DNA of 42,146 nucleotides from a virus. Under the pieces are notes generated by a model, which was given only the letters and a program-made list of their open reading frames with translations, made no database searches and was not told where the DNA came from. This document shows, in pieces, positions 3,671 to 41,847 of the stretch; the first letter of the stretch is position 1; each line of letters begins with the position of its first letter. Position numbers and translations under genes: made by a program. Where the stretch lies: positions 1-42,146 of the IMG/VR virus record IMGVR_UViG_3300045988_179251; one strand, given 5' to 3'.

Positions 3671-3678
3671 CAATAATA

Positions 3679-21536: not shown

Positions 21537-21543
21537 CTAAAAC

Positions 21544-25516: not shown

Positions 25517-25519
25517 CTC

Positions 25520-27073: not shown

Positions 27074-28468
27074 TTATATGAGGCCGCTCTCACGCAGACG
27101 CTCATACCCCGCCTCCAGCCTGGGCTCCACAGCCGTCACGTCAACAGTGCCCTCGCACTGCAAAAGAAAACGATTCACTCTCTTTGTTTGCCCCTTGCGA
27201 TTCAAGCGGGCAGACGCCTGCAAATTCAAAATCACACTATTATCCTCACTCAACCAAACCTCAGTATTGCAAACATTCTGCAGACCGTCAATCCCTTCGG
27301 CGGCAGCCGCAATAACGGAGCAGAGAATCCGCGGCCCATCGGGCTCCAAAAATCGTCGCCACTCACCCCGGTAAGCACTGGACAACTCGACGCTCTGATA
27401 GCCGGCATCAGCCAATCGTTTCCGCAACGGCGTCATGAATTTACGCGAATGGCACCACAGAATAACTTTCTCGTCTGGCGGTAGATCGGACAGAATATCG
27501 AGGGTGGCGTCAATCTTCGAGGATCCCCACTCCTCGAACTCCACATTATCGACCACGATCCTCAAGGGTCCGAGAGTGATCTGCCTGAGCCTTCCGTCGA
27601 GAACGGCGGCGGACGATGCCACGCTGGCCCCACCATCCATAACCGCCAAACGATGATCCACAAACTCCCGATACATCCTCTTCTGTTCACGACGCATCCC
27701 ACAAACGACACGTTGAACATTTACGGGAGGTAGATCACCGAAAACCTCACTCCCACGCATCGCAGACCAAATATCACCCACGGAATCACGGAGAGCGCCA
27801 GGATCCTTCTCGCCACCATAAATCCTGGCATACCGAGACGCTGCAAAAGGATTAAACTGAGAAACAAAAAACTCATCCGCAAACCGGTAGAAACTACGAT
27901 CAACACTCCCCGGGTTCAGAAACTTGAGTACCCCGTAAATATTGACGGGTTTATTGCCGGCAGGCGTGCCCGACAAACCAAGACGATACTTCGACTTCAA
28001 CGCCTTCACGGCCCGGAAAGACTGGGTTCTATGATTCGCGATACGATGAACCTCATCCACGACCACCATATCGAACAATTTCTTCGAGAAAGAAACGAAC
28101 GGCCACTTATCCGCTTCTACCGCCTTTCCCAGGGAAACGAGCAGCTCGAAATTAATAACCCACCAACCGCCCTCGCCGGCCAGCATGCCCTCAATGTTGC
28201 CGCGACCGGCCTTGGTAGTGCGAGACAGCACTTTCGCTTCCTGACCGGTGATGGTCTTAATACTGGCCTGCCATGACGGTATGACACGCTTCGGGCACAC
28301 AATGATGACTCGCCTGTCGGCGTCGAGTTTCTGTGCGACCCAGATTGCGCCGTATGTTTTGCCGCAGCCGGGCTCCCAAGCAAGCAATGCGCCACCGCCA
28401 TCTCGAATCGCGGTGACGGTACGGTTGATTTCTCTTTCCTGCGCCCCTGTGGGCTTAATGTTAATCAT
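27074..28468 (-). CDS. SNF2-family (DEAD/H-like) helicase
   Basis: Motif I is EPGCGKT, motif II is VVVDEVHRI, motif III is LSGTP and motif VI is LQASARLNRKGQ. 464 aa. Confidence 0.85.
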   Translation of the reverse strand: MINIKPTGAQEREINRTVTAIRDGGGALLAWEPGCGKTYGAIWVAQKLDADRRVIIVCPKRVIPSWQASIKTITGQEAKVLSRTTKAGRGNIEGMLAGEGGWWVINFELLVSLGKAVEADKWPFVSFSKKLFDMVVVDEVHRIANHRTQSFRAVKALKSKYRLGLSGTPAGNKPVNIYGVLKFLNPGSVDRSFYRFADEFFVSQFNPFAASRYARIYGGEKDPGALRDSVGDIWSAMRGSEVFGDLPPVNVQRVVCGMRREQKRMYREFVDHRLAVMDGGASVASSAAVLDGRLRQITLGPLRIVVDNVEFEEWGSSKIDATLDILSDLPPDEKVILWCHSRKFMTPLRKRLADAGYQSVELSSAYRGEWRRFLEPDGPRILCSVIAAAAEGIDGLQNVCNTEVWLSEDNSVILNLQASARLNRKGQTKRVNRFLLQCEGTVDVTAVEPRLEAGYERLRESGLI

Positions 28469-28553
28469 TGAAATTCGTCCAAACGATCACTAGTAGGCAA
28501 ATGGCGAGCAAGAACACTAGTAGTGTCACTTGTTTTCTCCTCTTTTCCGTATG

Positions 28554-28591
28554 ACGAACCCCGCCCCACAGGGTAATGGGACGGGGTTCGT
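28554..28591 (-). promoter_or_regulatory. 15-bp intercistronic hairpin (G-U pair only on the minus-strand RNA)
   Basis: ACGAACCCCGCCCCA pairs with TGGGACGGGGTTCGT. The C-A mismatch on + is a G-U pair on -. Downstream direct repeats CACTAGTAG lie at 28488-28496 and 28515-28523. Confidence 0.6.
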
Positions 28592-28600
28592 TCTGTCGGG

Positions 28601-28813
28601 TCAGTGGGTGATGGCGTGACGCTGCACAGCGTCCCAGTAGGCGTCCTCGTCAACGTCCACCACATAGTAGGGAGTGCCAGTAGCGGAGAAATACTGTCCG
28701 ATCACGTCATCGGCGATGTCAGCAACATCGTAGTCATCCACATTGTCCAGGGTAGGAATGATGTCGAACTCGACGACGTCGTTCCGAGTGCTGCGACGAG
28801 TGGTGATGTTCAT
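28601..28813 (-). CDS. Small highly acidic hypothetical protein
   Basis: The ATG at 28813 is preceded by GAGAAGAGAGAGAATC. The protein is 70 aa and rich in Asp (DNVDDYDVADIADDV...VVDVDEDAY). Confidence 0.5.
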   Translation of the reverse strand: MNITTRRSTRNDVVEFDIIPTLDNVDDYDVADIADDVIGQYFSATGTPYYVVDVDEDAYWDAVQRHAITH

Positions 28814-28914
28814 GATTCTCTCTCTTCTCTCCGTACTGTCACCGTCTCTCGGTGACGACCCTAGTATAGGCAGGCCATACACACCATCGTCAACCCGACG
28901 GGAGGTGACTCCGC

Positions 28915-29814
28915 TCACATCTCGAGGTGGAGGAGAGACAACGCCTCACCCACAGCCGCACTCACATCACCACCACACTCCAGCACCCTCATGCAATCGA
29001 ACGCCGTGTGCGCCCGGCCGTCCGCGAGTGGATCATCCGCATGATGTGAGAAGACCAGACCACTACTCAACAGTGTCACGCCTGGGGCCGTGTCGCCGCC
29101 ACGCGCATACCGCCACCGCCTCCCCACAGGCTCGTAAGGCCAACCGAACAAACCGACAAGATCATTAAAACTATACTTTGAATTGAACTCCCCGATCACC
29201 CCGCCATAGCCGCCATCGGGCACAGAAGACAAAGAAACATCATCATTCTTCTCCTCGTACCCGATATTCTCCAACCACTTATCAACATTCAAACGGGCAC
29301 CATCAATGAGCCAATGACGCACCCTCAAACCAAGACGATGCGACGGCAGGAAAAAAGCTCGGGACGCCTCCGCACACGACCCATCCCACTGGGCCACAGG
29401 CCCCAGCACACTGAAGCACGTCCGGGCGATCGCCTCACACTCTCCTACGGTCATGTTGCGAGTGCACGGCAGAACAACACGGAAGCGCGGGGACGGGAAA
29501 GACGACGACGCCGTCTCCCACACAATACCGGCAAGATTCGCAGCCCGCATACGGTCCCCGACGAAATCTTTCCGCGACCCATGATCCGCATCCAAAACGA
29601 TAGCGGACCGGGACACAAAATTTCTTTTCTGCCGCCTACCCCCCGAAAGAATGCCAGCGAAAAAAGCGGGAGCGTCATTCTTCTCACACCTTGAGGGCGC
29701 CTCACACAAGGCAGCAAAATCGTTAAGGTTTACGCTAGTGGCACGCCACCCTGTGATGGAGCGAACACTGCCCGCTACCATCACAGGGAAACGCACCCCG
29801 AAAACATCACTCAC
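28915..29814 (-). CDS. Primase-polymerase (AEP superfamily prim-pol)
   Basis: IVLDADHG supplies the DxD motif. The C-terminal GLVFSHHADDPL...AHTAFDCMRVLECGGDVSAAVGEAL resembles phage prim-pol C-terminal helical bundles (recollection). Confidence 0.65.
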   Translation of the reverse strand: MSDVFGVRFPVMVAGSVRSITGWRATSVNLNDFAALCEAPSRCEKNDAPAFFAGILSGGRRQKRNFVSRSAIVLDADHGSRKDFVGDRMRAANLAGIVWETASSSFPSPRFRVVLPCTRNMTVGECEAIARTCFSVLGPVAQWDGSCAEASRAFFLPSHRLGLRVRHWLIDGARLNVDKWLENIGYEEKNDDVSLSSVPDGGYGGVIGEFNSKYSFNDLVGLFGWPYEPVGRRWRYARGGDTAPGVTLLSSGLVFSHHADDPLADGRAHTAFDCMRVLECGGDVSAAVGEALSLLHLEM

Positions 29815-31378
29815 TGCACGATGGTTCCGCTATCTGATCCCGCAGAATCGCCTCCACGAGATCATTATCCACAATCGCACCTTCCGTCCGGAATTTCACG
29901 CCCCGACGAAGAATATACTGCCGATACTCCTCCACGCTCCGCGGAGACAAATTCTTCGCCTCCAAAACCTGATACAAACGAGTCTCAGTCGGCGGATTAC
30001 TACTGAAATCGTCCACCATACGCGTCAAGTCCGGGACGAAAACATAGTCGATCATTTTCAGCGCGTCGGGCAGCCAGAAATCGACGGCCAGACTGAAAGC
30101 TTTCCGAACCGCAGACGATGACACGCTCATCTGCTGCTCGAAGAGAGACAGAATAGCGGCCACGCGCATAATATGATTCCCCATGCGATCAATGACCGCT
30201 TGTACCGCCCGCTGGAAAGGCGACTCACGGGCCGCCTCCCCGGCCCAGGCCCGCACCGTTTCTACCCAAACATTCCGGGCCGACTCGGTCACGGTCATAG
30301 TCATTGGCGTGTTGACAGGCCAAAACTCGGTGGCACACGTGACCGTGCCACGGAATTCATGCTGCATCATACCCAACATTGTCGAAATGCGCTCGGAAGC
30401 ATGCTCAACAAAACCATCCCCACCATGCGCGCTCAAGTCATTGTTGGTGACCCATCCGAAAGACGACGGATCGGACCGACGGTCCTCCTCATCCAAGGCG
30501 AAAAGAATGCGCGGGCCCCACCCAGTCTCAAACAAAGACTGAGACATGCTATCGACTACGTCGCCGAGAATACCGGTGCCGCAAAAAGCAAGAGAATGAG
30601 GAACCCTCTCACTGTCCGCACGCTTCACACCATCGTCACCGACGCGCACAGACTCGACCGTTTTGCCCGAGTAGACGTCGGTCAGGAATCCGATGAGACC
30701 ACTACGATAACCCTCCCCCTGTGACGCGGAATACATGTTCTGCAATTCGTCTACAAACATAATAGACGCACCGCCAGGACGCTGCGCCATCCGCAAATTC
30801 AGACCTTCAGCCGTAACATTAGACCCGAACAAAACATTCGCCATAAGAGACCGCTCACACGGGCTATTACCAATAGTATTCAACAAATCCTTACGATCAG
30901 CCTCAAACTCGGTGATGCGATTATTGATATCGTCCCGCTCCGTGCGATATTCCTCAATATCAATACGCCCACTCCGCCTTTCCAGAGATTCCAGGCGACG
31001 GTACAGCATGCGGAGTGCTAAATCACACTCCCGCACAGCCGCCAAAGACGCCGACGAATCCCACCTGAACGCGCCCACACAGTCGTCGAAAAAACTACGC
31101 ACCAAAGACTGAGCCGTCGTCTTCCTCGACAAGGTGGACGCACCCAGGCAGTGCGAGTACAAGGTCAACGGCACCATGTTCTGCGCGTTCGCAGACAAAT
31201 GAGTCCTCGCAGACAGCGGCGCGGACACCATCGTCAAGAAAGTCGTCCACAGGAAACGAGGAGGCGTCTCCGGTGACCTGGACTGCAAATAGCCGACAAT
31301 CCTGTCAGCGAACCAATCATAGTGCGCTTTCCCCGTCGGTGGCAGAAACTCGTAATCCGTAATCCTCTCAACGCTCAA
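29807..31378 (-). CDS. DUF3987-like replicative helicase-associated protein
   Basis: 523 aa. It has a P-loop-like LGASTLSRKT and FVDELQNM. It is adjacent to and overlaps the prim-pol gene, which is the usual pairing. Confidence 0.6.
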   Translation of the reverse strand: MSVERITDYEFLPPTGKAHYDWFADRIVGYLQSRSPETPPRFLWTTFLTMVSAPLSARTHLSANAQNMVPLTLYSHCLGASTLSRKTTAQSLVRSFFDDCVGAFRWDSSASLAAVRECDLALRMLYRRLESLERRSGRIDIEEYRTERDDINNRITEFEADRKDLLNTIGNSPCERSLMANVLFGSNVTAEGLNLRMAQRPGGASIMFVDELQNMYSASQGEGYRSGLIGFLTDVYSGKTVESVRVGDDGVKRADSERVPHSLAFCGTGILGDVVDSMSQSLFETGWGPRILFALDEEDRRSDPSSFGWVTNNDLSAHGGDGFVEHASERISTMLGMMQHEFRGTVTCATEFWPVNTPMTMTVTESARNVWVETVRAWAGEAARESPFQRAVQAVIDRMGNHIMRVAAILSLFEQQMSVSSSAVRKAFSLAVDFWLPDALKMIDYVFVPDLTRMVDDFSSNPPTETRLYQVLEAKNLSPRSVEEYRQYILRRGVKFRTEGAIVDNDLVEAILRDQIAEPSCSE

Positions 31379-31689
31379 TTATTCTCCGCCTCCACGTCAA
31401 CAAGAAAACTACTGAAAGCGTCAATAATCTCATCGCCGTTGAAAGTATAGCCGACGTCGAATATAGGGCCCCAATAACGGTTCGCCTGCTCGAAAATCGT
31501 CGCCTTGTAGCCGCGCGCAGTATCCGCCTCGAAAATAAACCTATGCCCGGGCGATGCGACAACAATGTGGATGCTGTTGTTCCAGGCGCTTACTTCCAGG
31601 CCGAGCGAATCATTCCCGCCCTTGCTGGCGTAATTCTTGCACGCCTCGGTGACATGCTTCAGGAATTCCCAGTCGAATAGCTTGATCAT
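31375..31689 (-). CDS. Hypothetical early protein
   Basis: The ATG at 31689 forms an ATGA overlap with the upstream stop. The longer track ORF is low-complexity upstream of this point. Confidence 0.55.
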   Translation of the reverse strand: MIKLFDWEFLKHVTEACKNYASKGGNDSLGLEVSAWNNSIHIVVASPGHRFIFEADTARGYKATIFEQANRYWGPIFDVGYTFNGDEIIDAFSSFLVDVEAENN

Positions 31690-31997
31690 TTGTCCCCCCA
31701 CAGTTTTGTCTTGATTTCGGCGAGCAGTTCCCGAAGCTCCCATGCTCCCTCTCTTCCCTTCACAGTTGTTATTGTTTCGTTCGTTCCAGTGTTTCGAATG
31801 GTCACCGAATACTCGCCTCCCACAATGTTGAGAGTGCACCCGTATCGTTTTCCGGTGACGTCCAAGTAGAGGACAGGCAGGTCACTGTCTACCCTGGCGT
31901 CCTCGCCGACGTCTAACAGGATGGACTCGCAGCGCGAGTCATTGAGCATTTCAGCCACGAACTGGGTCACGACCGAGCGCAGCTCATCGTCGATCAC
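31686..31997 (-). CDS. Hypothetical early protein
   Basis: 103-aa ORF with 4-nt overlaps on both sides. Confidence 0.6.
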   Translation of the reverse strand: MIDDELRSVVTQFVAEMLNDSRCESILLDVGEDARVDSDLPVLYLDVTGKRYGCTLNIVGGEYSVTIRNTGTNETITTVKGREGAWELRELLAEIKTKLWGDK

Positions 31998-32329
31998 GAC
32001 TCCCGCCTTTCCATCATGCCAGCCAGCTCCATGAAGCGATTCACGGCATTGACGATGGTGTCCCTCTCAGCGCCGTTCTCGTCCAAAATGACATGATTCG
32101 ACAACTGAACGACGCGAACCCGCCACCTCTCATCTTTCGTGACAACAATTCTGAAAACGGTCCTATCAACAGGGTTCCTGGCCGTCGCCTTGAAAAGAAC
32201 ACCGAAAAGACGGCCGCCCTCATTGTTGCCGTGCAAGGCGGTGATCGAACACTGAGGCCACTGGGCGAAATCGCCAACACAACTAGCAAGAAAAGCGAAC
32301 ACCGCCCTATCGACAGCAGAGTCACTCAC
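31994..32329 (-). CDS. Hypothetical early protein
   Basis: 111-aa ORF with 4-nt overlaps on both sides. Confidence 0.6.
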   Translation of the reverse strand: MSDSAVDRAVFAFLASCVGDFAQWPQCSITALHGNNEGGRLFGVLFKATARNPVDRTVFRIVVTKDERWRVRVVQLSNHVILDENGAERDTIVNAVNRFMELAGMMERRES

Positions 32330-32604
32330 TTGTCGTCCGCCTTACTGCGGTTCGCCGCGACAATCAAAGCGCGATGGACGAACTCACCAACACTCTCCGG
32401 AGGAATCGCGATGCTCTTCCGCTTAACATGCCTTGCCCTCACCGTGTCGCCGGCGACCACAATACGGCAAGTGCTGCCGATAGTGATGATGCCGCCGTCA
32501 TAAATCTTACGGGCAGGCGCATGCACATTGAACTCGTGACGGCGCCCGTCATTATTCCACTCGCAGACCGCCTGGGAGACAACCGTTCCGAAAACTGTAC
32601 CCAT
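32326..32604 (-). CDS. Hypothetical early protein
   Basis: 92-aa ORF preceded by TTAGGAAGAGAGAAACATTACT-ATG. Confidence 0.6.
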   Translation of the reverse strand: MGTVFGTVVSQAVCEWNNDGRRHEFNVHAPARKIYDGGIITIGSTCRIVVAGDTVRARHVKRKSIAIPPESVGEFVHRALIVAANRSKADDK

Positions 32605-32669
32605 AGTAATGTTTCTCTCTTCCTAAATACTGTGATGAATACTACTATTCACTGTCGAGTGGCGTGTAC

Positions 32670-33161
32670 TTAAATGTCGGAGCCGATCACCTCCTCCACA
32701 GGCACGCCCACCAAATCACACAGATCAGCCAGACTGTCTCTGGCGTCAGACTGAGCGCACTCCCACACTGGCGAACCTTTCCTACTGTCCCTCATTTCTT
32801 CCAGGCAAAGAATGAAATCGTACGCCAGACGGGCACTCTCCATCTTCACCTCGTGCCGCTTAATGTGCTTGTGAATCCATCTAGCCGCAACAGCCGTGTT
32901 CTCACCCTTGGTGGCAATCTTTCTCCACCACGCATCCACTGCCGTGTTTTTCGGGCTGAAATACCATGTCGTCGGCCTACCGTCGTCGAAAACATACGTC
33001 TCGACAGTGCCGCTCTTAGTATCCCAAATAATGGCGGTGAAACCATCACTATCGTGATAGTAGGAAGTGGCAGACGGCATATTCTCCCGAATAAGCCCCA
33101 TCTCAACGTCCCGGTCAGTTACCCCCTCAATGTTGGGGTCGTCACATTCAAACCATAGCAT
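32670..33161 (-). CDS. Hypothetical early protein
   Basis: 163-aa ORF preceded by AGGAAGAGAGAGAGGAAGAGAATA-ATG. Confidence 0.6.
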   Translation of the reverse strand: MLWFECDDPNIEGVTDRDVEMGLIRENMPSATSYYHDSDGFTAIIWDTKSGTVETYVFDDGRPTTWYFSPKNTAVDAWWRKIATKGENTAVAARWIHKHIKRHEVKMESARLAYDFILCLEEMRDSRKGSPVWECAQSDARDSLADLCDLVGVPVEEVIGSDI

Positions 33162-33199
33162 TATTCTCTTCCTCTCTCTCTTCCTGGAATTGCGGCTGG

Positions 33200-34114
33200 T
33201 CAGACGATCACACTGTCAGGAATCTCCCGGATCCGAGCGCAGAACTGCCCCCACACCTCCTCCACGGCATCCGACCGGTCAAGAGAATACAACCTACCGG
33301 GGGAAAACTCTGCACCACCCCCGTTCGCGCTCACAACAATCTGCCCAATAATCTCACCATTGAAATAGGCGACAATCAAAGAATCCTCCGCCATAGCGAG
33401 AGTGATACCACAAGCGTCCGCCACCGAAACGAGACCATCCATGACCGAGGCGCCCACAACAAGACGGTCAAACATTTCCTGCACCTTATCCGCAAGGTTC
33501 TCAGTACAAGTCACACTAACATTGGTCACCCAGCCGAGAGTTTCAATATTGTCCACGGTCAACGCGACCTCACCGGAAACGAACATCATCTCACCAATCG
33601 GCTTCGTGTAAATGTGGAACCTTGAAGAATGCGTGAGCTGCCTCGCCGGCCTCCACGAGACAGCAGCTTCAATGGGAGTGCGGGAATGCTCAACGACAGG
33701 ATCATGGGAGAGAGCGTCCACAAAGTGGTCCCAGATGAGGCACTTCGACACGTCCTCACCCGAAAACTTGCCAACGCCCAGCTCGACGCCGCTTCGCCTC
33801 ATACCAACCATCATGGTGCCAATCGTCGACCCGCCGGACGACACTGTCAGAGTCGAAAACTCGTCCCCGTCGATATAGAGGCCGTGCTCATCGGCCAGGG
33901 TAAGAATGCGATCGTAAATTTTCGCCATACACACCATGGAAGCCAGCGCCTCATTAGCGGAACAACGGTCGTCCGGAAATTCGGAGAGGTAGACGGGCAC
34001 AAGGCGGTCGGACAAAAGAATGTCCTCCCTGTCCATGATCTGCGTTGTGCCGTCCAACCAAATACCACGCGACCAATTCGTAACGTCAATGGTGAAATGC
34101 GCGTCATAAAACAT
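33200..34114 (-). CDS. Hypothetical early protein with an apparent internal duplication
   Basis: The ATG at 34114 is preceded by AGGAAGAGATACATA. Two roughly 90-aa halves share a pattern (see findings). Confidence 0.6.
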   Translation of the reverse strand: MFYDAHFTIDVTNWSRGIWLDGTTQIMDREDILLSDRLVPVYLSEFPDDRCSANEALASMVCMAKIYDRILTLADEHGLYIDGDEFSTLTVSSGGSTIGTMMVGMRRSGVELGVGKFSGEDVSKCLIWDHFVDALSHDPVVEHSRTPIEAAVSWRPARQLTHSSRFHIYTKPIGEMMFVSGEVALTVDNIETLGWVTNVSVTCTENLADKVQEMFDRLVVGASVMDGLVSVADACGITLAMAEDSLIVAYFNGEIIGQIVVSANGGGAEFSPGRLYSLDRSDAVEEVWGQFCARIREIPDSVIV

Positions 34115-34158
34115 TATGTATCTCTTCCTGATACTCGTGTTGCCAGAATTGCGGGGGG

Positions 34159-34341
34159 TTACCGGACTCCTATCGCCCCCCACAGGACCCAGATAGCCGC
34201 CACGACACCGAGCGTCCCGATCACGGCGAAGCATGATGCGGTCAGGTAGATGATGGCGGCCAGGATGATTTCGCTGCTCCGTCTCAACGGGCGGCGGGTC
34301 GCGGCGTTGGTGCGCCTTGGTGCCGCATGCCTCATGCTCAT
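34159..34341 (-). CDS. Small membrane protein (first gene of the leftward arm)
   Basis: The ATG at 34341 is preceded by AGAGAAGGAACC. The protein is 60 aa with a basic N-terminus and a long hydrophobic segment (IILAAIIYLTASCFAVIGTLGVVAAIWVLWGAI). Confidence 0.5.
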   Translation of the reverse strand: MSMRHAAPRRTNAATRRPLRRSSEIILAAIIYLTASCFAVIGTLGVVAAIWVLWGAIGVR

Positions 34342-35121
34342 GGTTCCTTCTCTTTCTTCGTGGTGGTCTTGGTTGTGGTGCGGGGCTGCTGTCTTGCTCC
34401 CGATAGCCTTAACTCTAGGGGCCCGACGCTCGCCCGTCCACCCCACCTCGGTGAGACGTCCGCCACACTGTGGGGTTTGGTTTCCGACGTCGTCGGCCCA
34501 CCGCCCCAGAGCGCCATGAAAGGCGGACGGGTGATGGGGCGCATGCGGCCACGTCCGCCGTCCCGCGCGATCACGAGACGAAAGACGCAATGCCGGCCCA
34601 GCTCAGTCAAACCTTTCAGATTGGGTGGGCTGGTATGTCATTGCCGTCCTCTGTCACATCGCCTCACATGACGTTAATACCATTCTCTTCCAGTACACCC
34701 CCGATCTCCTCAACTGTCCCGAGGACGACGAGGCCCCACCTTCGACGACGAGGGCGGGGCCTCAGTGCGTCTACTGCGGAAGGGCGGTGTGTGATGGGGG
34801 CATGTGGTGCCGGCCACCAGGGTACTGATCTTTCACAGTTTCTGTTAACCTCCCGTTCATCTTGTTCACTTCCCGTTTACTTTCCCACACAAGTGGGTTG
34901 TTTGCTAGCAACCGGGGTTCTAGGGTGAAAACACCCGTTTGTGTTACTACAATATAGGTGCGTGTTGTCACAGTTTCTGTTCATGTGGCAAGGGATCGTG
35001 TCAGGGTGTTCCTTGTGATTGCAGCGTTTAGTCCCTGTTGCGGTTGTTTTGTTGGCAGTGTTTGTTGCGGTGACTTTAGTCCCGTATGCTACACTCGAGT
35101 AGACGAATCGTCGAAGACGAT

Positions 35122-35186
35122 CTGCGGCGCAGCCGCTGAGGAGCCCTAGCGACGCAAGCGAGCGTCAGCGCCGCAGGGTGTTTTCG
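35122..35186 (+). terminator. Terminator-like branched stem-loop with a U-tract
   Basis: CTGCGGCGC (35122-35130) pairs with GCGCCGCAG (35168-35176). An inner helix is GACGC/GCGTC. The element is followed by GGTGTTTTCG. Confidence 0.4.
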
Positions 35187-35215
35187 AAGAGCTCGCCACT
35201 GTGTTGGGCCCAACC

Positions 35216-35290
35216 TATACTCTTAAAAGAGTACTAGAATTAGACACTGTCTAACGCAACTAGACGGTGTCTAATTATGGAACACGTGTT
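35216..35290. promoter_or_regulatory. Cluster of operator-like palindromes in an AT-rich patch
   Basis: TATACT at 35216-35221. TACTCTT-AA-AAGAGTA at 35218-35233. TTAGACA-C-TGTCTAA at 35240-35254. CTAGACGGTGTCTAA at 35260-35274. AACACGTGTT at 35281-35290. Confidence 0.45.
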
Positions 35291-35401
35291 ATAACGTAAT
35301 TAATGTTCGATGGTGAACATGGTGATCGTTAACAGTGAACAGTGTGTTTGTGGTAGAAGTAACACACGCCGCATTAGGTGGACGCGCACACGAACACAGT
35401 A

Positions 35402-35461
35402 GGCGGCTGTCGTGCTACGTGCGTGCTCGCAGGGCTGCGCGCGCACTACACGACACCCGCC
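35402..35461 (+). promoter_or_regulatory. Conserved nested hairpin, copy A (followed by a polypurine tract 35467-35530)
   Basis: The outer stem is GGCGGCTGTCGTG/CACGACACCCGCC. The inner stem is GTGCGTGC/GCGCGCAC around the loop TCGCAGGGCT. The core is shared with copy B. Confidence 0.55.
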
Positions 35462-35633
35462 ATACCAGAACAAAGAAAGAAAGGAAGGAAGAAAAGCGGA
35501 AGAGGAAGGAAAAGAGGAAGAAGAACAAGGAGTAGTGTTAGACGGTGGAGGCGCTCGTCTCGCTGACGCTGCGACGCGCCACCACCTAACACCAACAAGA
35601 AAGACGAGAAGAAGAGAGCAGCAGTGAGCAGCA

Positions 35634-35978
35634 GTGAGCAGAACAAGCACACGCGAACACAAACAATTCAGAAAACAAGTACTCGCCAGAGCACAAGCCA
35701 TGGGCATCACACACTGCCCAGCATGCGGAGTAAAACTCCAATACAACAATGATGGACAACGCAAACTCAACAGTGCCGAGGCAGACCACATAATCCCAGC
35801 ATCACTAGGCGGAACCAACCACCCAGACAACGGCAGAGTATTATGCGCCAAATGCAACAGCAGACGAGGCAACGGACGAGGAGGCAAAGGCAGAGCACGC
35901 CACTACCAAAAAAACAAGGAGGAAAGAGACAGGCTACCCATCGCAGTCATGCCCACACGACACAGTGACACATGGTAG
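35634..35978 (+). CDS. HNH endonuclease (packaging-associated type)
   Basis: CPACG ... ADHIIPASLGGTNHPDNGRVLCAKCNSRRGN is a clear HNH motif with a zinc-binding CxxC pair. It lies upstream of the terminase. The GTG start is uncertain. Confidence 0.8.
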   Translation: MSRTSTREHKQFRKQVLARAQAMGITHCPACGVKLQYNNDGQRKLNSAEADHIIPASLGGTNHPDNGRVLCAKCNSRRGNGRGGKGRARHYQKNKEERDRLPIAVMPTRHSDTW

Positions 35979-36069
35979 ACACACACCACAGCCATTCCAA
36001 CAAAGAGAAAGGCGGGGAATAGAACAGAACAAAAGAGAAGACAAGACAAAGCAACAAGAAGAACAGGAT

Positions 36070-36126
36070 GGTGTTCGGGGATAACGTGCGTGCTCGCAGA
36101 GCTGCGCGCGCACTACCCCGAACACC
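36070..36126 (+). promoter_or_regulatory. Conserved nested hairpin, copy B (followed by a polypurine tract 36131-36175)
   Basis: The outer stem is GGTGTTCGGGG/CCCCGAACACC. The inner stem and loop are the same as copy A (loop TCGCAGAGCT). Confidence 0.55.
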
Positions 36127-37271
36127 AATAACAAGAAAGGAAGAGGAAGAGGAAGACGGAGAAGACAAGCAACGAGACCATCACACCCGTCGCACCACCG
36201 CCATTCCACAACAACACAACCCTGCCGCATTAACGCAACCCCAAACCAACAATGCTATGACAACAAACACAAAGAAGAGAGAGAAAAAAGAGAAACAAAC
36301 CACAATTCCACACACCACGACAACACACCCCCACCGCCCTTCTACAACACAACACCACACGTCACACCATAAGACAATGCGCACACCACAGTAAACAACA
36401 CGCACTGAAACACACGGCACACAATAGCGGTAGGCCGACAACAAACACCACCACCATCCACCCCCCACACGAACACTGCAACACACAAGACAGGAAAAGA
36501 GCAAGACAACACAAGAGGAACAAGACAATACGAAGGGGAAGCGGGACAACACGAGGTGCCGGCCCCGTTCCGAAACACCGGGCATCACAGCACACACCAC
36601 ACCCCGCCATCCAACGGGCCCACCACGCGAACGGAATGGGGACGCCAACATTCGAAAGGGGGACGCCAACACACGGACGGGGATACCAGTAACACAGCCG
36701 CCCTCCCATCACCATGCCACCCACCATCCGCCATGCCACCCCACCACCCACGACGGCCCCACCCACCACCACGACAAGGGGGGGGGCGATCGGAGGATAC
36801 CCCACCACACGAAGACCACGGACAGACACGCACCCGCACACCGCATCACCCGGCAACGAACAGCATACGACACGATCGCAGTACTGATGAGTACTGCACT
36901 GGGATGGGCGGGGCACGGGCCGGGCTGCACGCACTGGGCGGACAGCAGCAGCACACCCACCGCCATTCCACAACAGCACACCGATGAGAGATGGACACCA
37001 TCCGCTGTCCCACCTCGCACTGATCGCGTTCACACAACCAACGAACAACAATGATCAACAATGACCAACAATCAATGTTCAATGATTGAACAACAATCAA
37101 TGAACGATGAACATGATGATGATCAATCATCATCATGATGAACACAATGAACATGATGATGAACACATGATGATGATGTGATGCATGACATGCATACCAA
37201 TACCATGCACCATGCATGGTGCCAACGCATGCCGCAAAGGCAACACAACGCACAAACGCACAAATGCATAA

Positions 37272-37303
37272 AAATGTTATAAAACAAAAGAAATGTTATA
37301 AAA
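37272..37303. repeat. Two AT-rich 13-mers AAATGTTATAAAA (37272-37284 and 37291-37303)
   Basis: Exact direct repeat inside the most AT-rich stretch of the window (about 37255-37330). Confidence 0.6.
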
Positions 37304-37549
37304 ACATGCAAAAAAATTCAAAGGCACGAACCAAACAACGGCGTTCAAAAAACCATGGCAACATTTCGAGGCGAACACAAAGGGGGCCCCAACACCATAA
37401 GGGATCCCTTAAACGTGGGACCCACATCACAAAACAAGGCGGAGACCAGACAAAACGAGACGCACACCACACAATTCATGTGATGGGGGCCACTCCCCCT
37501 CCCCCATCCGGCCGCGAACACCCCGAAGGTCTGCCCATCTCTCCCTGCT

Positions 37550-37688
37550 TGTGGAAAACCCTGTGGATAACTCCAGTAACCCAGACCACAATGTGACCAT
37601 CATCATGTGGAAAGCTCCCAAACCTGTGGAAAACCCTGTGGAAAACTCTCCAGGTTGTGGACAACCCTGTGGAAAACCTTGTGGACAA
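37550..37688 (-). promoter_or_regulatory. Array of eight DnaA-box-like 9-mers, all in one orientation (candidate origin, DnaA-titration site or terminase recognition repeats)
   Basis: + strand TGTGGAAAA at 37550, 37625, 37637 and 37668. TGTGGATAA at 37562. TGTGGAAAG at 37606. TGTGGACAA at 37656 and 37680. Reverse complements are TTTTCCACA, TTATCCACA, CTTTCCACA and TTGTCCACA. Confidence 0.6.
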
Positions 37689-37730
37689 CCTCACCAGACG
37701 TGACCGACACCACCGCATATAATAGAAAAC

Positions 37731-38012
37731 ATGACAACCCACACAAACACCACAATCACTGTATACGAACCAAACAGCCCCACCCCCATAACCGACGCCA
37801 CAAACACAAACAACCCCACACTCATACGCCAAGCACTTGCACACAAAATCGCCACCGTCATAGACGACCCAAGAACAGGCGACACAGCACTCACAAAACT
37901 CACAGCACAACTCATACAAATCACAGACCAACTAGCCACCACACAAAACGAAAACACACACCCGGACACCACCGACATTCCAAACGAAACACAAACCTGG
38001 GACGGCATCTAA
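37731..38012 (+). CDS. Hypothetical protein in the small-terminase position
   Basis: 93-aa ORF ending 3 nt before terL. The central part (LIRQALAHKIATVIDDPRTGDTALTKLTAQLIQITDQL) looks helical and protein-like. There is no clear Shine-Dalgarno and the region is compositionally biased. Confidence 0.35.
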   Translation: MTTHTNTTITVYEPNSPTPITDATNTNNPTLIRQALAHKIATVIDDPRTGDTALTKLTAQLIQITDQLATTQNENTHPDTTDIPNETQTWDGI

Positions 38013-38015
38013 ACA

Positions 38016-39509
38016 ATGAGCGAAAAACACCTATCCGAAATCGCCGCCCACCTCACCCTCCCAGAAAACATCACACACACCGCCTGGCCGCCAGTCAAAC
38101 ACCGCCTCCAAGAAATGCAATACCCCCTCGACGTCTGGCAACAAGACTGGCTCAAAGCAATCCTCGCCAAAAGAAACGACGGCCACTACGCAGCCAGCAT
38201 CGACGGAATCCAAGCATCCATCCCCCGCCAGGTCGGCAAAACATACACAATCGGCGGCCTCGCATTCGCACTCGCCACCCTCCACCCAAACTACTTCATC
38301 CTTTGGACCGCACACCGCACACGCACCGCAGACGAAACATTCAACGACATGAAAGGCATGGCACAAATACCCAACATCGCCCCATACGTAAACAAAATAC
38401 GGCAAGCAAACGGACAGCAAGCCATCCTCTTCAACAACGGATCACGCATTCTCTTCGGCGCCCGCGAAGGAGGATTCGGACGCGGATTCCACGGCGTCGA
38501 CATGATCCTTTTCGACGAAGCCCAGATCCTGGGCGCCGCCGCACTAGACGACATGATCCCCGCCACAAACACGGCGCCAGACCCGCTCATCATCAAAATC
38601 GGGACACCACCAAAACCAAAAGACCCGTCCGAAGCTTTCAGCGAATTCCGCAACCTCGCTTTGCAAGGCGAAATAAAAGACGGCCTCTACCTCGAACTAG
38701 CCGCCGACTACAACGCTAACAGCGACGACAGAAAACAATGGGAAAAAGCCAACCCATCATACCCTCGCCGCACACCCGAATCCGCCATTCTAAGAATGCG
38801 CAGACAACTCGGAGAAGAATCATTCCGACGTGAAGGCCTCGGAATCTGGGACCGCGCCAACGACAGACTCGCAATCGACCCAGTCGCCTGGAACACCGCC
38901 ACAATACGCCCAGAAAACACCCCCAGCGGCATGCGATGGTGCGCCGCAATCCGATTCGCACCCGACGGATCAACATGCGCCCTAGCCAGAGCAGGACACA
39001 AAGCCAACACGCCCACACACGTCGAACTATGCACCCACCAAGGCGTCCGCCGCATGAATGAAGGCACGCAATGGATCATCGACTACATTGCGGACACAAA
39101 AGACAGATGGGCACAAATCATCGTAGACGGAAAATACGGTGCCGGAGACACAATCGAAAGACTGAGAGCCATCGGAGTACGCCCCCAAGTCATCATCACC
39201 CCCACGATCACGCAAATCATAGACGCTTACAGCATGCTAGACGCCTCGTTGCGCGAAAAAACGATCACACACCTAGACGATATGGAATTGCGGACTGAGG
39301 CCGCGTCGGCGACGCCGCGCCCAATCGGAACATCAGGTGGGTGGGCGCTACAAGCCCCGCCAGGCGCCACCGTAGCCGGCCTAGAAGCCTGCACGCTCGC
39401 AATGTGGGCCGCGCGCACAACAAAAAGAAGGCCACGTTACAAACCTTATGATAAAATCGAAAACGCCAATAGTAACACTGATCGTGGCGGCGGAGTACTG
39501 TTCCTATGA
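38016..39509 (+). CDS. terL: Terminase large subunit
   Basis: 497 aa. The Walker A-like motif is IPRQVGKTYT and Walker B is MILFDEAQIL. It is followed by a nuclease-domain-sized C-terminus and directly precedes the portal gene. Confidence 0.9.
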   Translation: MSEKHLSEIAAHLTLPENITHTAWPPVKHRLQEMQYPLDVWQQDWLKAILAKRNDGHYAASIDGIQASIPRQVGKTYTIGGLAFALATLHPNYFILWTAHRTRTADETFNDMKGMAQIPNIAPYVNKIRQANGQQAILFNNGSRILFGAREGGFGRGFHGVDMILFDEAQILGAAALDDMIPATNTAPDPLIIKIGTPPKPKDPSEAFSEFRNLALQGEIKDGLYLELAADYNANSDDRKQWEKANPSYPRRTPESAILRMRRQLGEESFRREGLGIWDRANDRLAIDPVAWNTATIRPENTPSGMRWCAAIRFAPDGSTCALARAGHKANTPTHVELCTHQGVRRMNEGTQWIIDYIADTKDRWAQIIVDGKYGAGDTIERLRAIGVRPQVIITPTITQIIDAYSMLDASLREKTITHLDDMELRTEAASATPRPIGTSGGWALQAPPGATVAGLEACTLAMWAARTTKRRPRYKPYDKIENANSNTDRGGGVLFL

Positions 39510-41113: not shown

Positions 41114-41121
41114 CACTTATC

Positions 41122-41847
41122 ATGCTGTCAACCGCAGAAATCGGGGCGTACGGGCGAGCAATAGACTCACTCACCACACTCGCCCAAAACGATTTACACA
41201 CACTCTGGTCGCACGCTGCTAGACAGCGCCCCGAACAGGCACGCGATCTTCTACTCGAAATCATGCCCGCCCTCGTCGACCAATACGGCAGTGCGGCCGC
41301 CGCAATCGCCGACGAATGGTACCGCGACATGCGCCTAGACCAGGACATTCCCGGCGACGCACCCACAGTACAAACATCGCTCACACCACAAGGTGAAATA
41401 GACGACAGCGTAAGATTCAGTGCAGGCGCACTATACGCCGGAACCCCTGACATTGCCCTATCCTATTTGACCGGGGCGCTCATCCGATACGTCAGCGACG
41501 GCGCCCGCTCACAAATCGCAGACATGACATGGGCCGACCCAGAAGCAATGGGCTGGGAAAGACGGACACGCAATCCACAAGCATGCAATTTCTGCGTCAT
41601 GCTCACAATGAACGAATGCTACTACCGCAGCCAGGGCACCGCATCATTCGGGGCGCACGATAACTGTAAATGTGTTGCGGTCCCCGCATGGGACCCGACC
41701 TCCCGGGAAGTGCCGGCAAAAGCATACGCGCTCGCAGCCAGACACAAAACCGAAAAGGGTCGCACGCGCCATCGCGAGCTCGTTTCATCGTGGATAGACA
41801 CGCACCAGGAAGAGCTTGCAGAATGGCGTACCCGGCCAATTGAATGA
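41122..41847 (+). CDS. MuF-like head morphogenesis (minor capsid) protein
   Basis: C-terminal CNFCVML...FGAHDNCKCVAVP is the CxxC...HxxCxC pattern of Mu F / SPP1 gp7-like proteins. It follows the portal gene. Confidence 0.7.
   Translation: MLSTAEIGAYGRAIDSLTTLAQNDLHTLWSHAARQRPEQARDLLLEIMPALVDQYGSAAAAIADEWYRDMRLDQDIPGDAPTVQTSLTPQGEIDDSVRFSAGALYAGTPDIALSYLTGALIRYVSDGARSQIADMTWADPEAMGWERRTRNPQACNFCVMLTMNECYYRSQGTASFGAHDNCKCVAVPAWDPTSREVPAKAYALAARHKTEKGRTRHRELVSSWIDTHQEELAEWRTRPIE

What the first reader, a model, noticed from the sequence alone, without database searches (positions are those of the whole stretch)
27074..39230. Two opposite synonymous-codon regimes (G/T-ending versus A/C-ending); the + strand stays A+C-rich across a gene-orientation switch
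By eye, most genes use G/T-ending codons on their own coding strand. Examples are the tape measure 3' end, the capsid gene, SNF2, prim-pol and dcd, which favour GAT, GGT, CGT, TTG, AAG, GAG and CAG. In contrast HNH, the 37731 ORF, terL up to about 39230 and the MuF-like gene use A/C-ending codons almost exclusively (CAA, AAA, GAA, ACA, CCA, CTC, CTA, AGA, GGA). The middle of the scaffold-like gene, the first ~530 nt of the endolysin gene and the first two thirds of the RuvC-like gene also do. As a result the + strand is A+C-rich from about 27 kb to 39.2 kb regardless of whether genes are on - or +. The switch occurs inside genes (about 39230 in terL, about 19990 in the endolysin gene, about 22500 in the RuvC-like gene). 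This is the signature of strand-asymmetric C-to-T and A-to-G transition pressure of the ssDNA deamination type. The pattern fits three explanations: replication asymmetry, dominant leftward (antisense) transcription through the terminase/non-coding region, or recent mosaic recombination between phages with opposite strand histories.
Basis: seen in the sequence. Interest (0 to 1): 0.65.

Follow-up and report, generated by a model that had tools for sequence, protein, structure and literature searches.

The report
T-poor A/C-rich strand zone around cos
In this actinobacterial phage genome, about 3.8 kb around the cohesive-end site has one DNA strand made almost only of A and C at every free position, and comparison of 51 related genomes suggests that selection, not DNA-damage mutation, holds it that way.

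Summary
G+T at third codon positions is 0.04-0.17 in HNH, terS and the first 405 codons of terL. It is about 0.5 in most structural genes and 0.61-0.72 in the minus-strand replication genes.

The window is a circular assembly of an uncultured cos-type actinophage. Its physical ends lie at about 37,531/37,532, so the extreme zone (35,450-39,280) straddles cos. The profile is the same in all 51 aligned relatives (62 close relatives were found) and absent from terL in more distant relatives.

Seven of nine cos-type actinophages surveyed show a milder version: A/C-ending codons just before cos, then G/T-ending or neutral codons after it. In this lineage the zone is more extreme, crosses cos, and includes a 1.3-1.6 kb non-coding spacer with only 8-12% T.

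Polymorphism data argue against ongoing deamination pressure. Rare variants show no G-to-A or T-to-C excess. T alleles are kept rare. A selection model fits better than a mutation-bias model by about 9 log-likelihood units.

No antisense promoter and no mosaic junction were found. The function is inferred only. My best guess is that the plus strand must stay free of secondary structure and signals as RNA or as single-stranded DNA.

The parts
27089..35702 (.). Moderate domain. Plus-strand A+C at third codon positions is 0.67. It holds the minus-strand replication genes (SNF2 27074-28468, primase/helicase 28915-29814, DUF3987 29807-31378 and others). A+C dips to 0.38-0.51 at 34.2-35.4 kb.
   Evidence: and 34/67. 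In 15 genomes the sense-strand C>T and T>C rates are balanced (0.185 and 0.207), and only A-ending codons are depleted.
35193..35283 (+). Promoter-like site (TCGCCA-17-TATACT, -10 at 35216-35221) followed by an operator-like palindrome (35231-35253 / 35261-35283). It lies upstream of the point where the skew starts.
   Evidence: I3. Consensus match only; function inferred.
35399..35595 (+). Two long hairpins (35399-35465 and 35535-35595) flank a 69-nt T-free AG-rich run (35464-35532). The hairpin core ACGTGCGTGCTCGCAGRGCTGCGCGCGCACTAC recurs at 36084-36116, again followed by an AG-rich run.
   Evidence: (D11, D13).
35450..37531 (+). Right-end half of the extreme zone. Plus-strand A+C is 0.61-0.77 and T is 0.06-0.17.
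35700..35978 (+). HNH endonuclease gene, K3 0.12.
   Evidence: PF01844, PF14279.
35979..37531 (+). Non-coding spacer. ORFs on either strand show no codon periodicity. Its length is 1297-1600 nt in 19 genomes and it is rich in indels, yet its composition is constant (A .36-.42, C .29-.33, G .17-.23, T .08-.12). It carries the conserved motif CACCGCCATTCC about three times per genome and ATGATGA-type repeats at 37040-37200.
37485..37545 (.). cos region. The physical ends lie at about 37531/37532.
   Evidence: About ten independent contigs start at or within four bases of 37532. The sequence on both sides matches the termini of the cultured relatives MrSmee, AbbyDaisy, G4 and Spartoi.
37544..37689 (+). 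Array of TGTGGA[A/T/C]AAC boxes, about five copies per genome. Relatives carry one copy near the left end in the opposite orientation. The boxes match the DnaA-box consensus. They are probably the terS-binding part of cos (cosB) or sites for a transcriptional activator.
   Evidence: (D2). Function inferred.
37718..37723 (+). TATAAT hexamer ending 7 nt before the terS ATG, the spacing of a leaderless-type promoter. It is conserved in relatives.
   Evidence: Inferred.
37731..38012 (+). Small terminase subunit gene. K3 is 0.06 in the window and 0.040 on average in 51 genomes. The protein is itself rich in Thr, Asn, Pro and Gln.
   Evidence: phrog_1459, E 1.5e-4.
38016..39280 (+). First ~405-420 codons of terL (the gene ends at 39509). 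K3 is 0.07-0.23. The regime ends at 39,230-39,280, inside the gene.
39281..41844 (+). Tail of the domain. Third-position A+C is 0.64 (39281-40384), 0.40 (40387-40981) and 0.71 (40984-41844, MuF-like). Selection against G/T here is weak (gamma 1.3-2.8).

Best explanation
The window is a complete circular assembly of an uncultured cos-type siphophage of an actinobacterium. Its nearest named TerL relatives are prophage terminases of Actinomyces and Schaalia. Its cohesive ends lie at about 37,531/37,532.

About 3.8 kb straddling cos (35,450-39,280) is held in a composition in which the plus strand is almost free of T and poor in G wherever the proteins allow. This stretch holds HNH, a 1.5-kb non-coding spacer, cos, the box array, terS and the first ~405 codons of terL. 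The plus strand is the sense strand of every gene in the zone.

Shown here:
- The state is shared by all close relatives and is absent from terL of relatives at 60% identity.
- It is strongest next to cos and the terS start and fades by 39.28 kb.
- It is maintained by a selection-like force, mainly against T, rather than by the present mutation spectrum.

Inferred:
- The selected property is a bulk one. A and C cannot pair with each other, so a strand of A and C cannot fold on itself. It also carries almost no -10 hexamers, start or stop codons, U-tracts or palindromes.
- I therefore propose that the plus strand of this zone must stay free of structure and signals when it is single-stranded. 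That state could be the rightward transcript that runs from the 35.2-kb promoter through HNH and the spacer and, from the TATAAT at 37.72 kb, into terS and terL. It could also be the 3' tail left at the right end after resection by the phage's own exonuclease/Sak4 system.
- The few strong hairpins and conserved motifs then stand out as the only folded or recognisable elements.

The milder G/T-ending regime of the minus-strand replication genes (27.1-34.2 kb) is a separate and ordinary matter. Those genes avoid A-ending codons, as most genes in this genome do, and show no preference for C over T. Because they lie on the minus strand, this also makes the plus strand T-poor.
For: Ends at 37,531/2.

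Conservation in relatives. Absence in outgroups: terL K3 0.45-0.52 in L067 and L068.

Selection rather than mutation:
- C/T polymorphisms in the zone are kept rare (mean minor-allele count 3.0 against 7.4 in the control). A/C polymorphisms are 29% of biallelic sites against 1.5%, and they sit at intermediate frequency.
- Third-position diversity is 0.06-0.13 at 37.73-38.37 kb against 0.18-0.33 beyond 39.28 kb.
- 35% of C-majority synonymous sites are monomorphic, against 7% in the control.
- Non-synonymous rare variants show no G>A or T>C excess.
- Model fits on synonymous sites: selection lnL -658.6 (gamma 4.5), mutation bias -667.5. In the full model the two directional mutation parameters differ only 1.5-fold while gamma stays at 4.0.
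- Scaled strength (gamma) of the force against T falls along the sequence: about 54, then 12, then 1.7.

Bulk-property argument:
- Third positions (T .03-.04, G .03-.09) are more extreme than the adjacent non-coding DNA (T .06-.10, G .17-.23), while overall composition is similar.
- The spacer keeps its composition despite about 23% divergence and indels.
- The rare-variant matrix predicts 27% T, against 10.5% observed.

Structure: plus-strand RNA of the zone folds at -0.06 to -0.2 kcal/mol/nt, against -0.3 to -0.44 elsewhere.

Recombination genes: exonuclease and Sak4-like annealase.
Against: The function is not demonstrated. No transcript, end or ssDNA data exist.

The population models assume independent sites, stationarity and one well-mixed population. 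Terminal branches are long (all pairs 89-92% identical), so 'rare variants' are already filtered substitutions, not raw mutations.

In the first 670 nt after the terS start, selection and very high back-mutation fit equally well. For A/G sites the mutation-bias model fits as well as selection, so G depletion may be partly mutational. The non-coding zone does show mild asymmetry: G>A 0.201 against C>T 0.144, and G>C 0.098 against C>G 0.051.

Seven of nine surveyed cos-type actinophages flip codon regime at cos whatever the gene content. The plus strand of the right arm also stays A+C-rich here although the genes are inverted. Both points favour a DNA-level cause related to the ends or to replication over a purely RNA-level one.

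A need for unstructured RNA is normally local (tens of nucleotides), not 1.5-4 kb. At the left end the 3'-ended strand is the G/T-rich one, so the 3'-tail version explains only the right-end half.
Confidence: 0.42

Rival explanations
1. Strand-asymmetric mutation tied to replication or to the genome ends. Replication is primed from the annealed cos nicks or from invading 3' ends. The minus strand left of the start point is displaced and single-stranded for long periods, and deamination (C to U, A to hypoxanthine) makes it G/T-rich. In relatives the forks diverge at cos. In this lineage the leftward fork would start near 39.28 kb.
For: - The composition is exactly the amino/keto asymmetry that deamination of one strand gives.
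- The plus strand is A+C-rich from 27.09 to 39.28 kb whatever the gene orientation.
- Seven of nine cos-type actinophages flip regime at cos, most strongly next to the ends.
- There is mild G>A and G>C excess in the non-coding zone.
- The mutation-bias model fits A/G sites as well as selection does.
Against: - No excess of G>A or T>C among non-synonymous rare variants in terL or among synonymous ones in the right-arm genes.
- The frequency spectrum favours selection by about 9 lnL units, and adding mutation bias to the selection model gains only 0.5.
- Eight synonymous sites carry G/T in at least 41 of 51 genomes, which a ten-fold back-mutation rate would not allow.
- Third positions are more skewed than non-coding DNA.
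- T is more depleted than G, although cytosine deaminates far faster than adenine (established chemistry).
- The profile is stepwise, not a gradient, and the plus strand never turns G/T-rich to the right of 39.28 kb apart from 40.39-40.98 kb.
Confidence: 0.22
2. Translational tuning. HNH, terS and terL encode DNA-cutting or low-copy packaging proteins. A-ending codons, which are rare in high-G+C actinobacteria, throttle their translation, while C stays the default for pyrimidine-ending codons.
For: - A3 is 0.33-0.42 in the zone, against 0.03-0.18 in other genes.
- The HNH gene next to cos is the most A/C-ending gene in nearly every relative surveyed: 0.90, 0.75, 0.79, 0.72, 0.90, 0.74, 0.64.
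Against: - The 1.5-kb non-coding spacer has the same composition.
- The regime stops inside terL, not at a gene end.
- The strongest constraint is against T, which the same tRNAs read as C, and not for A.
- The terL genes of relatives are not A/C-ending.
Confidence: 0.1
3. Relic or mosaic. The zone was acquired from, or shaped in, an ancestor with a very different strand history and is now decaying neutrally.
For: - The lineage is isolated, with no TerL between 63% and 96% identity, so the origin of the zone cannot be traced.
- Regime switches fall inside genes, as mosaic junctions often do.
Against: - The profile and limits are identical in 51 genomes that differ by 8-11%.
- TerL identity to ten outgroups does not change across residue 405/406.
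- T alleles are purged while A/G and A/C variants in the same region drift freely.
- The fast-evolving spacer keeps 8-12% T.
- No known donor has K3 near 0.05.
Confidence: 0.08
4. Dominant leftward (antisense) transcription from a promoter near 39.3 kb through terL, terS, cos, the spacer and HNH into the early genes. This exposes the minus strand as the non-template strand.
For: The minus strand of the zone has the composition of sense strands of the G/T-ending genes (A-poor, rich in G and T). The skew is continuous with the leftward early genes.
Against: - No promoter-like site on the minus strand in 34200-39600.
- The minus strand is so A-poor that -10 hexamers are almost impossible there.
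- Minus-strand ORFs are not coding.
- The skew is interrupted at 34.2-35.4 kb.
- There is no mutational asymmetry in the rare variants.
- In relatives the same right-arm asymmetry exists with rightward genes.
Confidence: 0.04

Closest known systems
Replication-associated strand compositional asymmetry (leading strand rich in G and T, with a switch at origin and terminus), as described for bacterial chromosomes and some dsDNA viruses
   Same: The asymmetry is of amino against keto bases, does not depend on gene orientation over 27-39 kb, and has sharp switch points. In related phages the sign flips at one point (cos).
   Different: - The magnitude is far larger: third-position A+C is 0.88-0.96, where bacterial skews are a few per cent to about 20%.
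- There is no domain of opposite sign on the other side of the switch.
- The profile is stepwise and local (3.8 kb).
- Polymorphism data point to selection, not mutation.
Vertebrate mitochondrial heavy/light-strand asymmetry (deamination of the displaced H strand, with A/C-ending codons in L-strand-sense genes)
   Same: Third positions are almost only A and C in sense-strand genes, the complementary strand is rich in G and T, and the amino-acid composition is bent the same way.
   Different: - There is no monotonic gradient with distance from an origin.
- T is more depleted than G, the reverse of mtDNA.
- Non-coding DNA is less skewed than third positions.
- Rare variants show no deamination excess.
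Flip of codon regime at cos in cultured cos-type actinophages (Arthrobacter phages MrSmee, AbbyDaisy and Sarge, Mycobacterium phage Gomashi, Brevibacterium phage Rousseau), measured here. I found no paper describing it.
   Same: The genes just left of cos, above all the terminal HNH gene, use A/C-ending codons with T3 of 0.00-0.12. The end sequences and the TTTTCCACA box are homologous.
   Different: In those phages the regime flips to G/T-ending or neutral exactly at cos, and all genes at both ends are rightward. Here it crosses cos for 1.7 kb, reaches 0.94-0.96, is accompanied by a 1.5-kb T-poor spacer, and the right-arm genes are inverted.
Selection for weak mRNA structure near translation starts, and CA-rich translational enhancers (from general knowledge; not tested here)
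   Same: An A/C-rich, unstructured sense strand that starts at a putative leaderless promoter and is strongest in the first ~670 nt.
   Different: Known cases span tens of nucleotides, not 1.5-4 kb, and do not include long non-coding DNA upstream of the promoter.

Membership tests
Replication-associated strand asymmetry | The asymmetry does not depend on gene orientation | tested here: met
   Plus-strand third-position A+C is 0.67 over the minus-strand genes at 27.09-35.7 kb and 0.88 over the plus-strand genes at 35.7-39.28 kb. Relatives with rightward right-arm genes show the same sign.
Replication-associated strand asymmetry | Two domains of opposite sign that meet at origin and terminus | tested here: not met
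   To the right of 39.28 kb the plus strand reads 0.64, 0.40, 0.71 and then 0.49 for 27 kb. There is no G/T-rich counterpart. The feature is met in MrSmee, Rousseau and AbbyDaisy, where the flip is at cos.
Replication-associated strand asymmetry | Caused by strand-asymmetric mutation (complementary substitution rates differ) | tested here: not met
   In terL non-synonymous rare variants the rate ratio of changes towards A/C to changes towards G/T is 0.87, against 0.60-0.84 in other genes. Right-arm genes show no deamination excess on the minus strand. There is mild asymmetry for loss of G in the non-coding zone only.
mtDNA-type ssDNA deamination gradient | Skew rises monotonically with time spent single-stranded (distance from the origin) | tested here: not met
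   Stepwise segments, with unskewed patches at 28.2-28.9, 31.4-32.0 and 34.2-35.4 kb.
mtDNA-type ssDNA deamination gradient | Unconstrained sites (non-coding, four-fold) share the same extreme composition | tested here: not met
   Third positions have T .03-.04 and G .03-.09. The non-coding spacer has T .08-.12 and G .17-.23.
Transcription-associated asymmetry | The sign follows the direction of transcription of each gene | tested here: not met
   Plus-strand genes of the zone are A/C-ending, while plus-strand structural genes are neutral and minus-strand replication genes are G/T-ending. No antisense promoter-like site was found. Real transcripts were not measured.
Mosaic acquisition (horizontal transfer) | Regime limits coincide with breaks in homology or vary among relatives | tested here: not met
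   The limits are the same in 51 genomes. TerL identity to ten outgroups is 0.50-0.59 before and 0.49-0.60 after residue 405.
Translational codon-usage selection | Confined to coding sequence and bounded by genes | tested here: not met
   The same composition holds in 1.5 kb of non-coding DNA, and the limit lies inside terL.
cos-type HNH/terminase packaging module (HK97-like arrangement) | HNH gene upstream of cos with terS-terL-portal downstream, and defined cohesive ends | tested here: met
   Pfam and PHROG hits. Contig starts cluster at 37532. The termini are homologous to those of cultured relatives. The overhang itself cannot be read from sequence.

The most novel reading that the evidence does not exclude
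The zone is a new kind of cis-acting 'bulk composition' element. It would be a strand-specific stretch, nearly free of T and poor in G, that is kept by selection across the cohesive-end site of an abundant, probably human-associated phage lineage. It would be required because that strand works in a single-stranded state during late transcription, end resection and annealing, or initiation of replication from cos. The regime flip at cos in other cos-type actinophages would be the milder, general form of the same requirement.
Probability: 0.3. Interest if true: 0.75.

Novelty: new variant of a known kind. Interest (0 to 1): 0.6.

Why it matters
Strand asymmetries in base composition are normally read as passive footprints of mutation and are used to place replication origins. 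This case is extreme: 93-96% A/C at synonymous sites. It is centred on the packaging site of a phage lineage seen in many metagenomes, and population data point to selection on bulk strand composition instead.

If that holds, three things follow.
- Synonymous sites and 'spacer' DNA near phage genome ends would carry function. This matters for genome recoding and for engineering therapeutic or tool phages.
- Skew-based origin prediction in phages would need caution.
- The regime flip at cos in cultured actinophages such as MrSmee, Sarge, Rousseau and Gomashi offers tractable systems to test what single-stranded or transcriptional state of the genome ends is being protected.

Tried and rejected
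- Sequencing or assembly artefact: rejected. 62 independent contigs from many samples share the pattern and the reading frames are intact.
- Known RNA families or tRNAs in the zone: none.
- Hidden genes in the spacer or on the antisense strand: no codon periodicity, and the translations are low-complexity.
- Nucleotide match in GenBank phages: none. Literature searches for a described cos-centred skew or for this phage group found nothing relevant.
- Mosaic junction at 39,230: no change in TerL identity to outgroups.
- Origin-like repeats at the 27.09-kb change point: none.
- RNA element at the 39.28-kb limit: none. The fold is no better than shuffles.
- Imports by recombination as the source of rare variants: singletons are spread over the genomes and are not clustered.
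- Simple singleton flux (68 A/C-to-G/T changes against 1 reverse change): I first read this as proof against mutation bias, then discarded it as biased. Reverse changes at already polymorphic sites cannot be seen, and terminal branches are long. I replaced it with the non-synonymous comparison and the frequency-spectrum models.
- Strand-biased mismatch repair or GC-biased gene conversion as the selection-like force: rejected on logic. It would favour G as well as C.
- One row (portal 40385-41110) was computed out of frame and is not used.

Full report
**What the window is.** The first and last 55 bases are identical, so the window is a circular assembly of 42,091 unique bases.
- HNH endonuclease (35700-35978)
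- small terminase (37731-38012)
- TerL (38016-39509)
- SPP1-type portal
- MuF/VG15-like protein
- SNF2 helicase (27074-28468)
- a primase/helicase pair (28915-31378)
- Dcd (15951-16472)
- an exonuclease and a Sak4-like annealase (24764-26392)

There is no nucleotide match among GenBank phages. TerL is 49% identical to those of Arthrobacter, Rothia and Propionibacterium freudenreichii phages. It is 59-63% identical to prophage terminases of Actinomyces and Schaalia. IMG/VR holds 62 close relatives, with TerL 93-98% identical and DNA 88-91% identical. All pairs among 51 aligned genomes are 89-92% identical.

**Check of the observation.**
- Per-gene third-position G+T (K3) is 0.12 for HNH, 0.06 for terS, 0.17 for terL and 0.29 for the MuF-like gene.
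- K3 is 0.42-0.58 for most structural genes and 0.61-0.72 for most minus-strand genes between 27,074 and 34,234.
- Inside terL, K3 is 0.07-0.23 up to about 39,200 and 0.35-0.42 afterwards. The endolysin gene runs from 0.28-0.42 at its 5' end to 0.72-0.97 at its 3' end. The RuvC-like gene switches near 22,600.
The difference remains within amino acids (CMH p 1e-44).
- Likelihood segmentation of plus-strand A+C at third positions places change points at 27,086/27,089, 35,702, 39,278, 40,384 and 40,981. The segment values are 0.49, 0.67, 0.88, 0.64, 0.40 and 0.71.

The core claim and its coordinates therefore hold. Three statements are too strong:
- Most genes are neutral, not G/T-ending.
- The plus strand dips to 0.38-0.51 A+C at 34.2-35.4 kb.
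- 'Almost exclusively A/C' applies only to HNH, terS and the terL 5' part.

The sharpest single feature is the lack of T: 6-10% of all bases at 35.4-36.9 kb, with T-free runs of up to 69 nt.

**Where the zone sits.**
- About ten contigs from different samples begin at or within four bases of window position 37,532, and several more begin within 50 nt of it.
- The sequence there (…GGGGGCCACTCCCCCTCCCCCATCCGGCCGCGAACACCCCGAAGGTC | TGCCCATCTCTCCCTGCTTGTGGAAAAC…) is homologous on both sides to the experimentally defined termini of the cultured relatives. Their left ends read AGCGATCTCTCCCC…TTTTTTCCACA, and their right ends read GGGGG…CCCCC…CGAACACCCC…GG.
- The physical ends are therefore at about 37,531/37,532, and the extreme zone covers 2.1 kb of the right end and 1.7 kb of the left end.
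- The 1.5 kb between HNH and cos is non-coding. ORFs on either strand lack codon periodicity.
- In 19 genomes this spacer is 1,297-1,600 nt long and only 68-86% matched pairwise. Its composition is nearly constant: A .36-.42, C .29-.33, G .17-.23, T .08-.12.
- Just right of cos lie about five TGTGGA[A/T/C]AAC boxes per genome. Relatives have one box in the opposite orientation. A conserved TATAAT follows, ending 7 nt before the terS ATG.

**Conservation and age.**
- The A+C profile is superimposable in the window and eleven relatives with full flanks.
- In 51 genomes terS K3 is 0.040 +/- 0.010 and terL codons 1-405 give 0.154 +/- 0.023, against 0.315 for codons 406-497.
- Contigs with TerL at 60-62% identity (G+C 68-71%) have ordinary terL codon usage, K3 0.45-0.52.
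- TerL identity to ten outgroups does not change across residue 405/406.

A recent mosaic event is therefore excluded. The state arose on the branch leading to this lineage.

**A wider pattern.** I measured third-position A+C in nine cos-type actinophages in which all genes at both ends are rightward. In seven of them the genes just before cos are A/C-ending, and those just after cos are G/T-ending or neutral.

| Phage | Right arm (before cos) | Left arm (after cos) |
|---|---|---|
| MrSmee | .65-.79 (up to .95 in HNH) | .25-.30 |
| AbbyDaisy | .55-.75 | .35-.48 |
| Sarge | .63-.72 (HNH .90, no T at all) | .39-.49 |
| Gomashi | .53-.81 | .43-.48 |
| Rousseau | .53-.89 | .20-.42 |
| L067 | .64-.90 | terS .36, terL .55 |
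| L068 | HNH .75 | .41-.48 |

G4 shows nothing. In Spartoi only HNH stands out.

Two opposite codon regimes that meet at cos are therefore common in this group. I found no paper that describes this. In the window the right-arm genes are inverted, yet the plus strand is still A+C-rich. This lineage differs from the others in three ways: the regime crosses cos, it reaches 0.94-0.96, and it includes a long T-poor spacer.

**Mutation or selection.** I used 51 aligned genomes for 37,731-7,000 across the window junction, 15 genomes for the right arm and 19 for the non-coding zone.
- In the zone (37,731-39,230), C/T polymorphisms are held at low frequency: minor-allele classes 37/28/17/3, mean 3.0. 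The control (410-7,000) has 102/152/178/165, mean 7.4.
- A/G polymorphisms have the control's spectrum. A/C polymorphisms make up 29% of biallelic sites against 1.5%, and they sit at intermediate frequency. A regional sweep or low recombination therefore cannot explain the rarity of T.
- Third-position diversity is 0.06-0.13 in the first 640 nt after the terS start, 0.16-0.23 up to 39.27 kb and 0.18-0.33 beyond.
- 35% of C-majority synonymous sites are monomorphic, against 7% in the control.
- A very high back-mutation rate mimics selection in such spectra, so I looked for it directly. At codon positions 1 and 2 of terL 38,016-39,230 the rare-variant rates are T>C 2/140, C>T 8/212, G>A 17/213 and A>G 20/238. 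The rate ratio of changes towards A/C to changes towards G/T (0.87) matches portal (0.75), tape measure (0.84) and capsid (0.60).
- In the non-coding zone the rates are T>C 0.169, C>T 0.144, G>A 0.201 and A>G 0.145. The stationary composition of that matrix has 27% T and 26% A, against 10.5% and 38% observed. C and G are close to prediction.
- Two-allele stationary models fitted to synonymous sites give lnL -658.6 for selection (theta 0.29, gamma 4.5) and -667.5 for biased mutation. Adding selection to the mutation model gains 9.4 units. Adding mutation bias to the selection model gains 0.5.
- By sub-zone, the scaled force against T is about 54 (37,731-38,400, where the two models cannot be separated), about 12 (38,401-39,230), 1.7 (39,231-40,384), 3.8 (MuF) and 1.7 (control).
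- Against G it is 3.6-4.6 in the zone and -0.7 in the control. For G the mutation model fits equally well.

Caveats: terminal branches are long, so rare variants are already filtered. The models assume independent sites at equilibrium. I discarded my first argument, which was based on raw singleton flux, because reverse changes at polymorphic sites are invisible.

**Further arguments for a bulk constraint.**
- Third codon positions (T .03-.04, G .03-.09) are more extreme than the neighbouring non-coding DNA, while overall composition is similar in coding and non-coding parts. This looks as if third positions compensate for the G and T that the proteins need at positions 1 and 2.
- Under pure mutation pressure, unconstrained DNA should be at least as skewed.
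- T is more depleted than G. That is the reverse of what spontaneous deamination predicts, because cytosine deaminates much faster than adenine (established chemistry).

**The moderate domain (27.09-35.7 kb).** In the minus-strand replication genes the sense-strand C>T and T>C rates are balanced (0.185 and 0.207), and T is near its expected level. Only A-ending codons are far below expectation: 10% observed against 69% predicted from G>A 0.223 and A>G 0.102.

Their 'G/T-ending regime' is therefore the usual avoidance of A-ending codons together with no preference for C over T. Because the genes lie on the minus strand, this makes the plus strand T-poor as well. The continuity of plus-strand composition across the orientation switch is real. 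Whether it is one phenomenon or two that add up cannot be settled here.

**What it most likely is.**
- Shown: a conserved, cos-centred, strand-specific T-poor and G-poor zone held by a selection-like force.
- Inferred: the selected property is the inability of the plus strand to pair with itself or to carry signals. Every Watson-Crick or wobble pair needs a G or a T/U. The plus-strand RNA of the zone folds at only -0.06 to -0.2 kcal/mol/nt, against -0.3 to -0.44 elsewhere.
- The few strong hairpins (35399-35465, 35535-35595, 36067-36125) and the conserved motifs stand out against this background.
- The single-stranded state could be the rightward transcripts. One promoter-like site with an operator palindrome lies at 35193-35283, and a TATAAT lies at 37718.
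- It could also be the 3' tail of the right end after resection by the phage's exonuclease/Sak4 system.
- I cannot choose between these. The comparative pattern keeps a replication-related or end-related origin of the asymmetry alive, especially for G.

**Rejected or unsupported.**
- Antisense transcription: no minus-strand promoter-like site.
- Hidden antisense genes.
- Known RNA families or tRNAs.
- Repeats at the 27.09-kb limit.
- An RNA element at 39.28 kb.
- Recombination imports as the source of rare variants.

**Verdict.** The finding is an unusual variant of a known kind of feature. It is of moderate to high interest, because selection on bulk strand composition around a phage packaging site has, as far as I could find, not been described.

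Noticed in passing
window 37485-37545: The cohesive-end site can be placed at about 37531/37532. About ten unrelated contigs start at or within four bases of that position, and both flanks are homologous to the termini of cultured Arthrobacter, Rothia and Propionibacterium phages (ATCTCTCCC on the left; a GGGGG..CCCCC hairpin plus CGAACACCCC on the right).
   Followed up: yes
window 37544-37689 and 37718-37723: An array of TGTGGA[A/T/C]AAC boxes that match the DnaA-box consensus, about five per genome. Relatives have a single copy in the opposite orientation (TTTTTCCACA) about 20 nt from the left end. A conserved TATAAT follows, ending 7 nt before the terS ATG, which suggests a leaderless late promoter with upstream binding sites.
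   Followed up: partly
window 35399-35640 and 36060-36180: A repeated unit made of a long GC-rich hairpin followed by a T-free run rich in A and G and full of GGA/GAGG (Shine-Dalgarno-like) motifs. The 33-nt hairpin core is 97% identical between 35417-35449 and 36084-36116.
   Followed up: partly
window 35983-37984: The motif CACCGCCATTCCACA recurs 3-5 times on the plus strand and is kept in all 19 relatives despite a hypervariable background. Its reverse complement contains TGTGGAAT, which resembles the box right of cos.
   Followed up: partly
window 37040-37200: A dense block of ATGATGA / CATCATCAT repeats with many overlapping ATG and TGA triplets, 330-490 nt left of cos, in the most A+T-rich part of the region.
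   Followed up: no
window 34715 (relatives, e.g. L008 5320-6680): Relatives carry about 1.35 kb that the window lacks. It holds two rightward ORFs of about 100-110 codons, between the early leftward genes and the regulatory region.
   Followed up: partly
window 20350-20965: The 3' end of the endolysin gene has the opposite extreme: G/T-ending codons at 72-97%, with plus-strand A+C of 0.37. I did not check whether relatives share it or whether it marks a domain swap.
   Followed up: no
window 22319-22358; 21094-21590: Two tandem copies of the perfect palindrome TGTTTCACGTGAAACA (operator-like), and three perfect or near-perfect 18-19-bp hairpins in the low-G+C intergenic region 20965-21584.
   Followed up: no
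L065 (Arthrobacter phage MrSmee) 40738-41043 vs 424-1761; L083 (Sarge) 35891-36154; L087/L086 (Rousseau): Cultured cos-type actinophages flip from A/C-ending codons (HNH third-position A+C 0.79-0.90, T3 down to 0.00) to G/T-ending codons (terL or portal A+C 0.20-0.30) exactly at the genome ends, with all genes on one strand.
   Followed up: partly
window 6380-7576: The tape-measure gene contains internal diverged repeats. They appear as secondary BLAST alignments at 68-83% identity in every relative.
   Followed up: no
window 36705-36790 and 37485-37512: Clusters of C-runs on the plus strand (G-runs on the minus strand, with quadruplex-like spacing) and a G9 run at about 36776. The second cluster lies directly at cos.
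   Followed up: no
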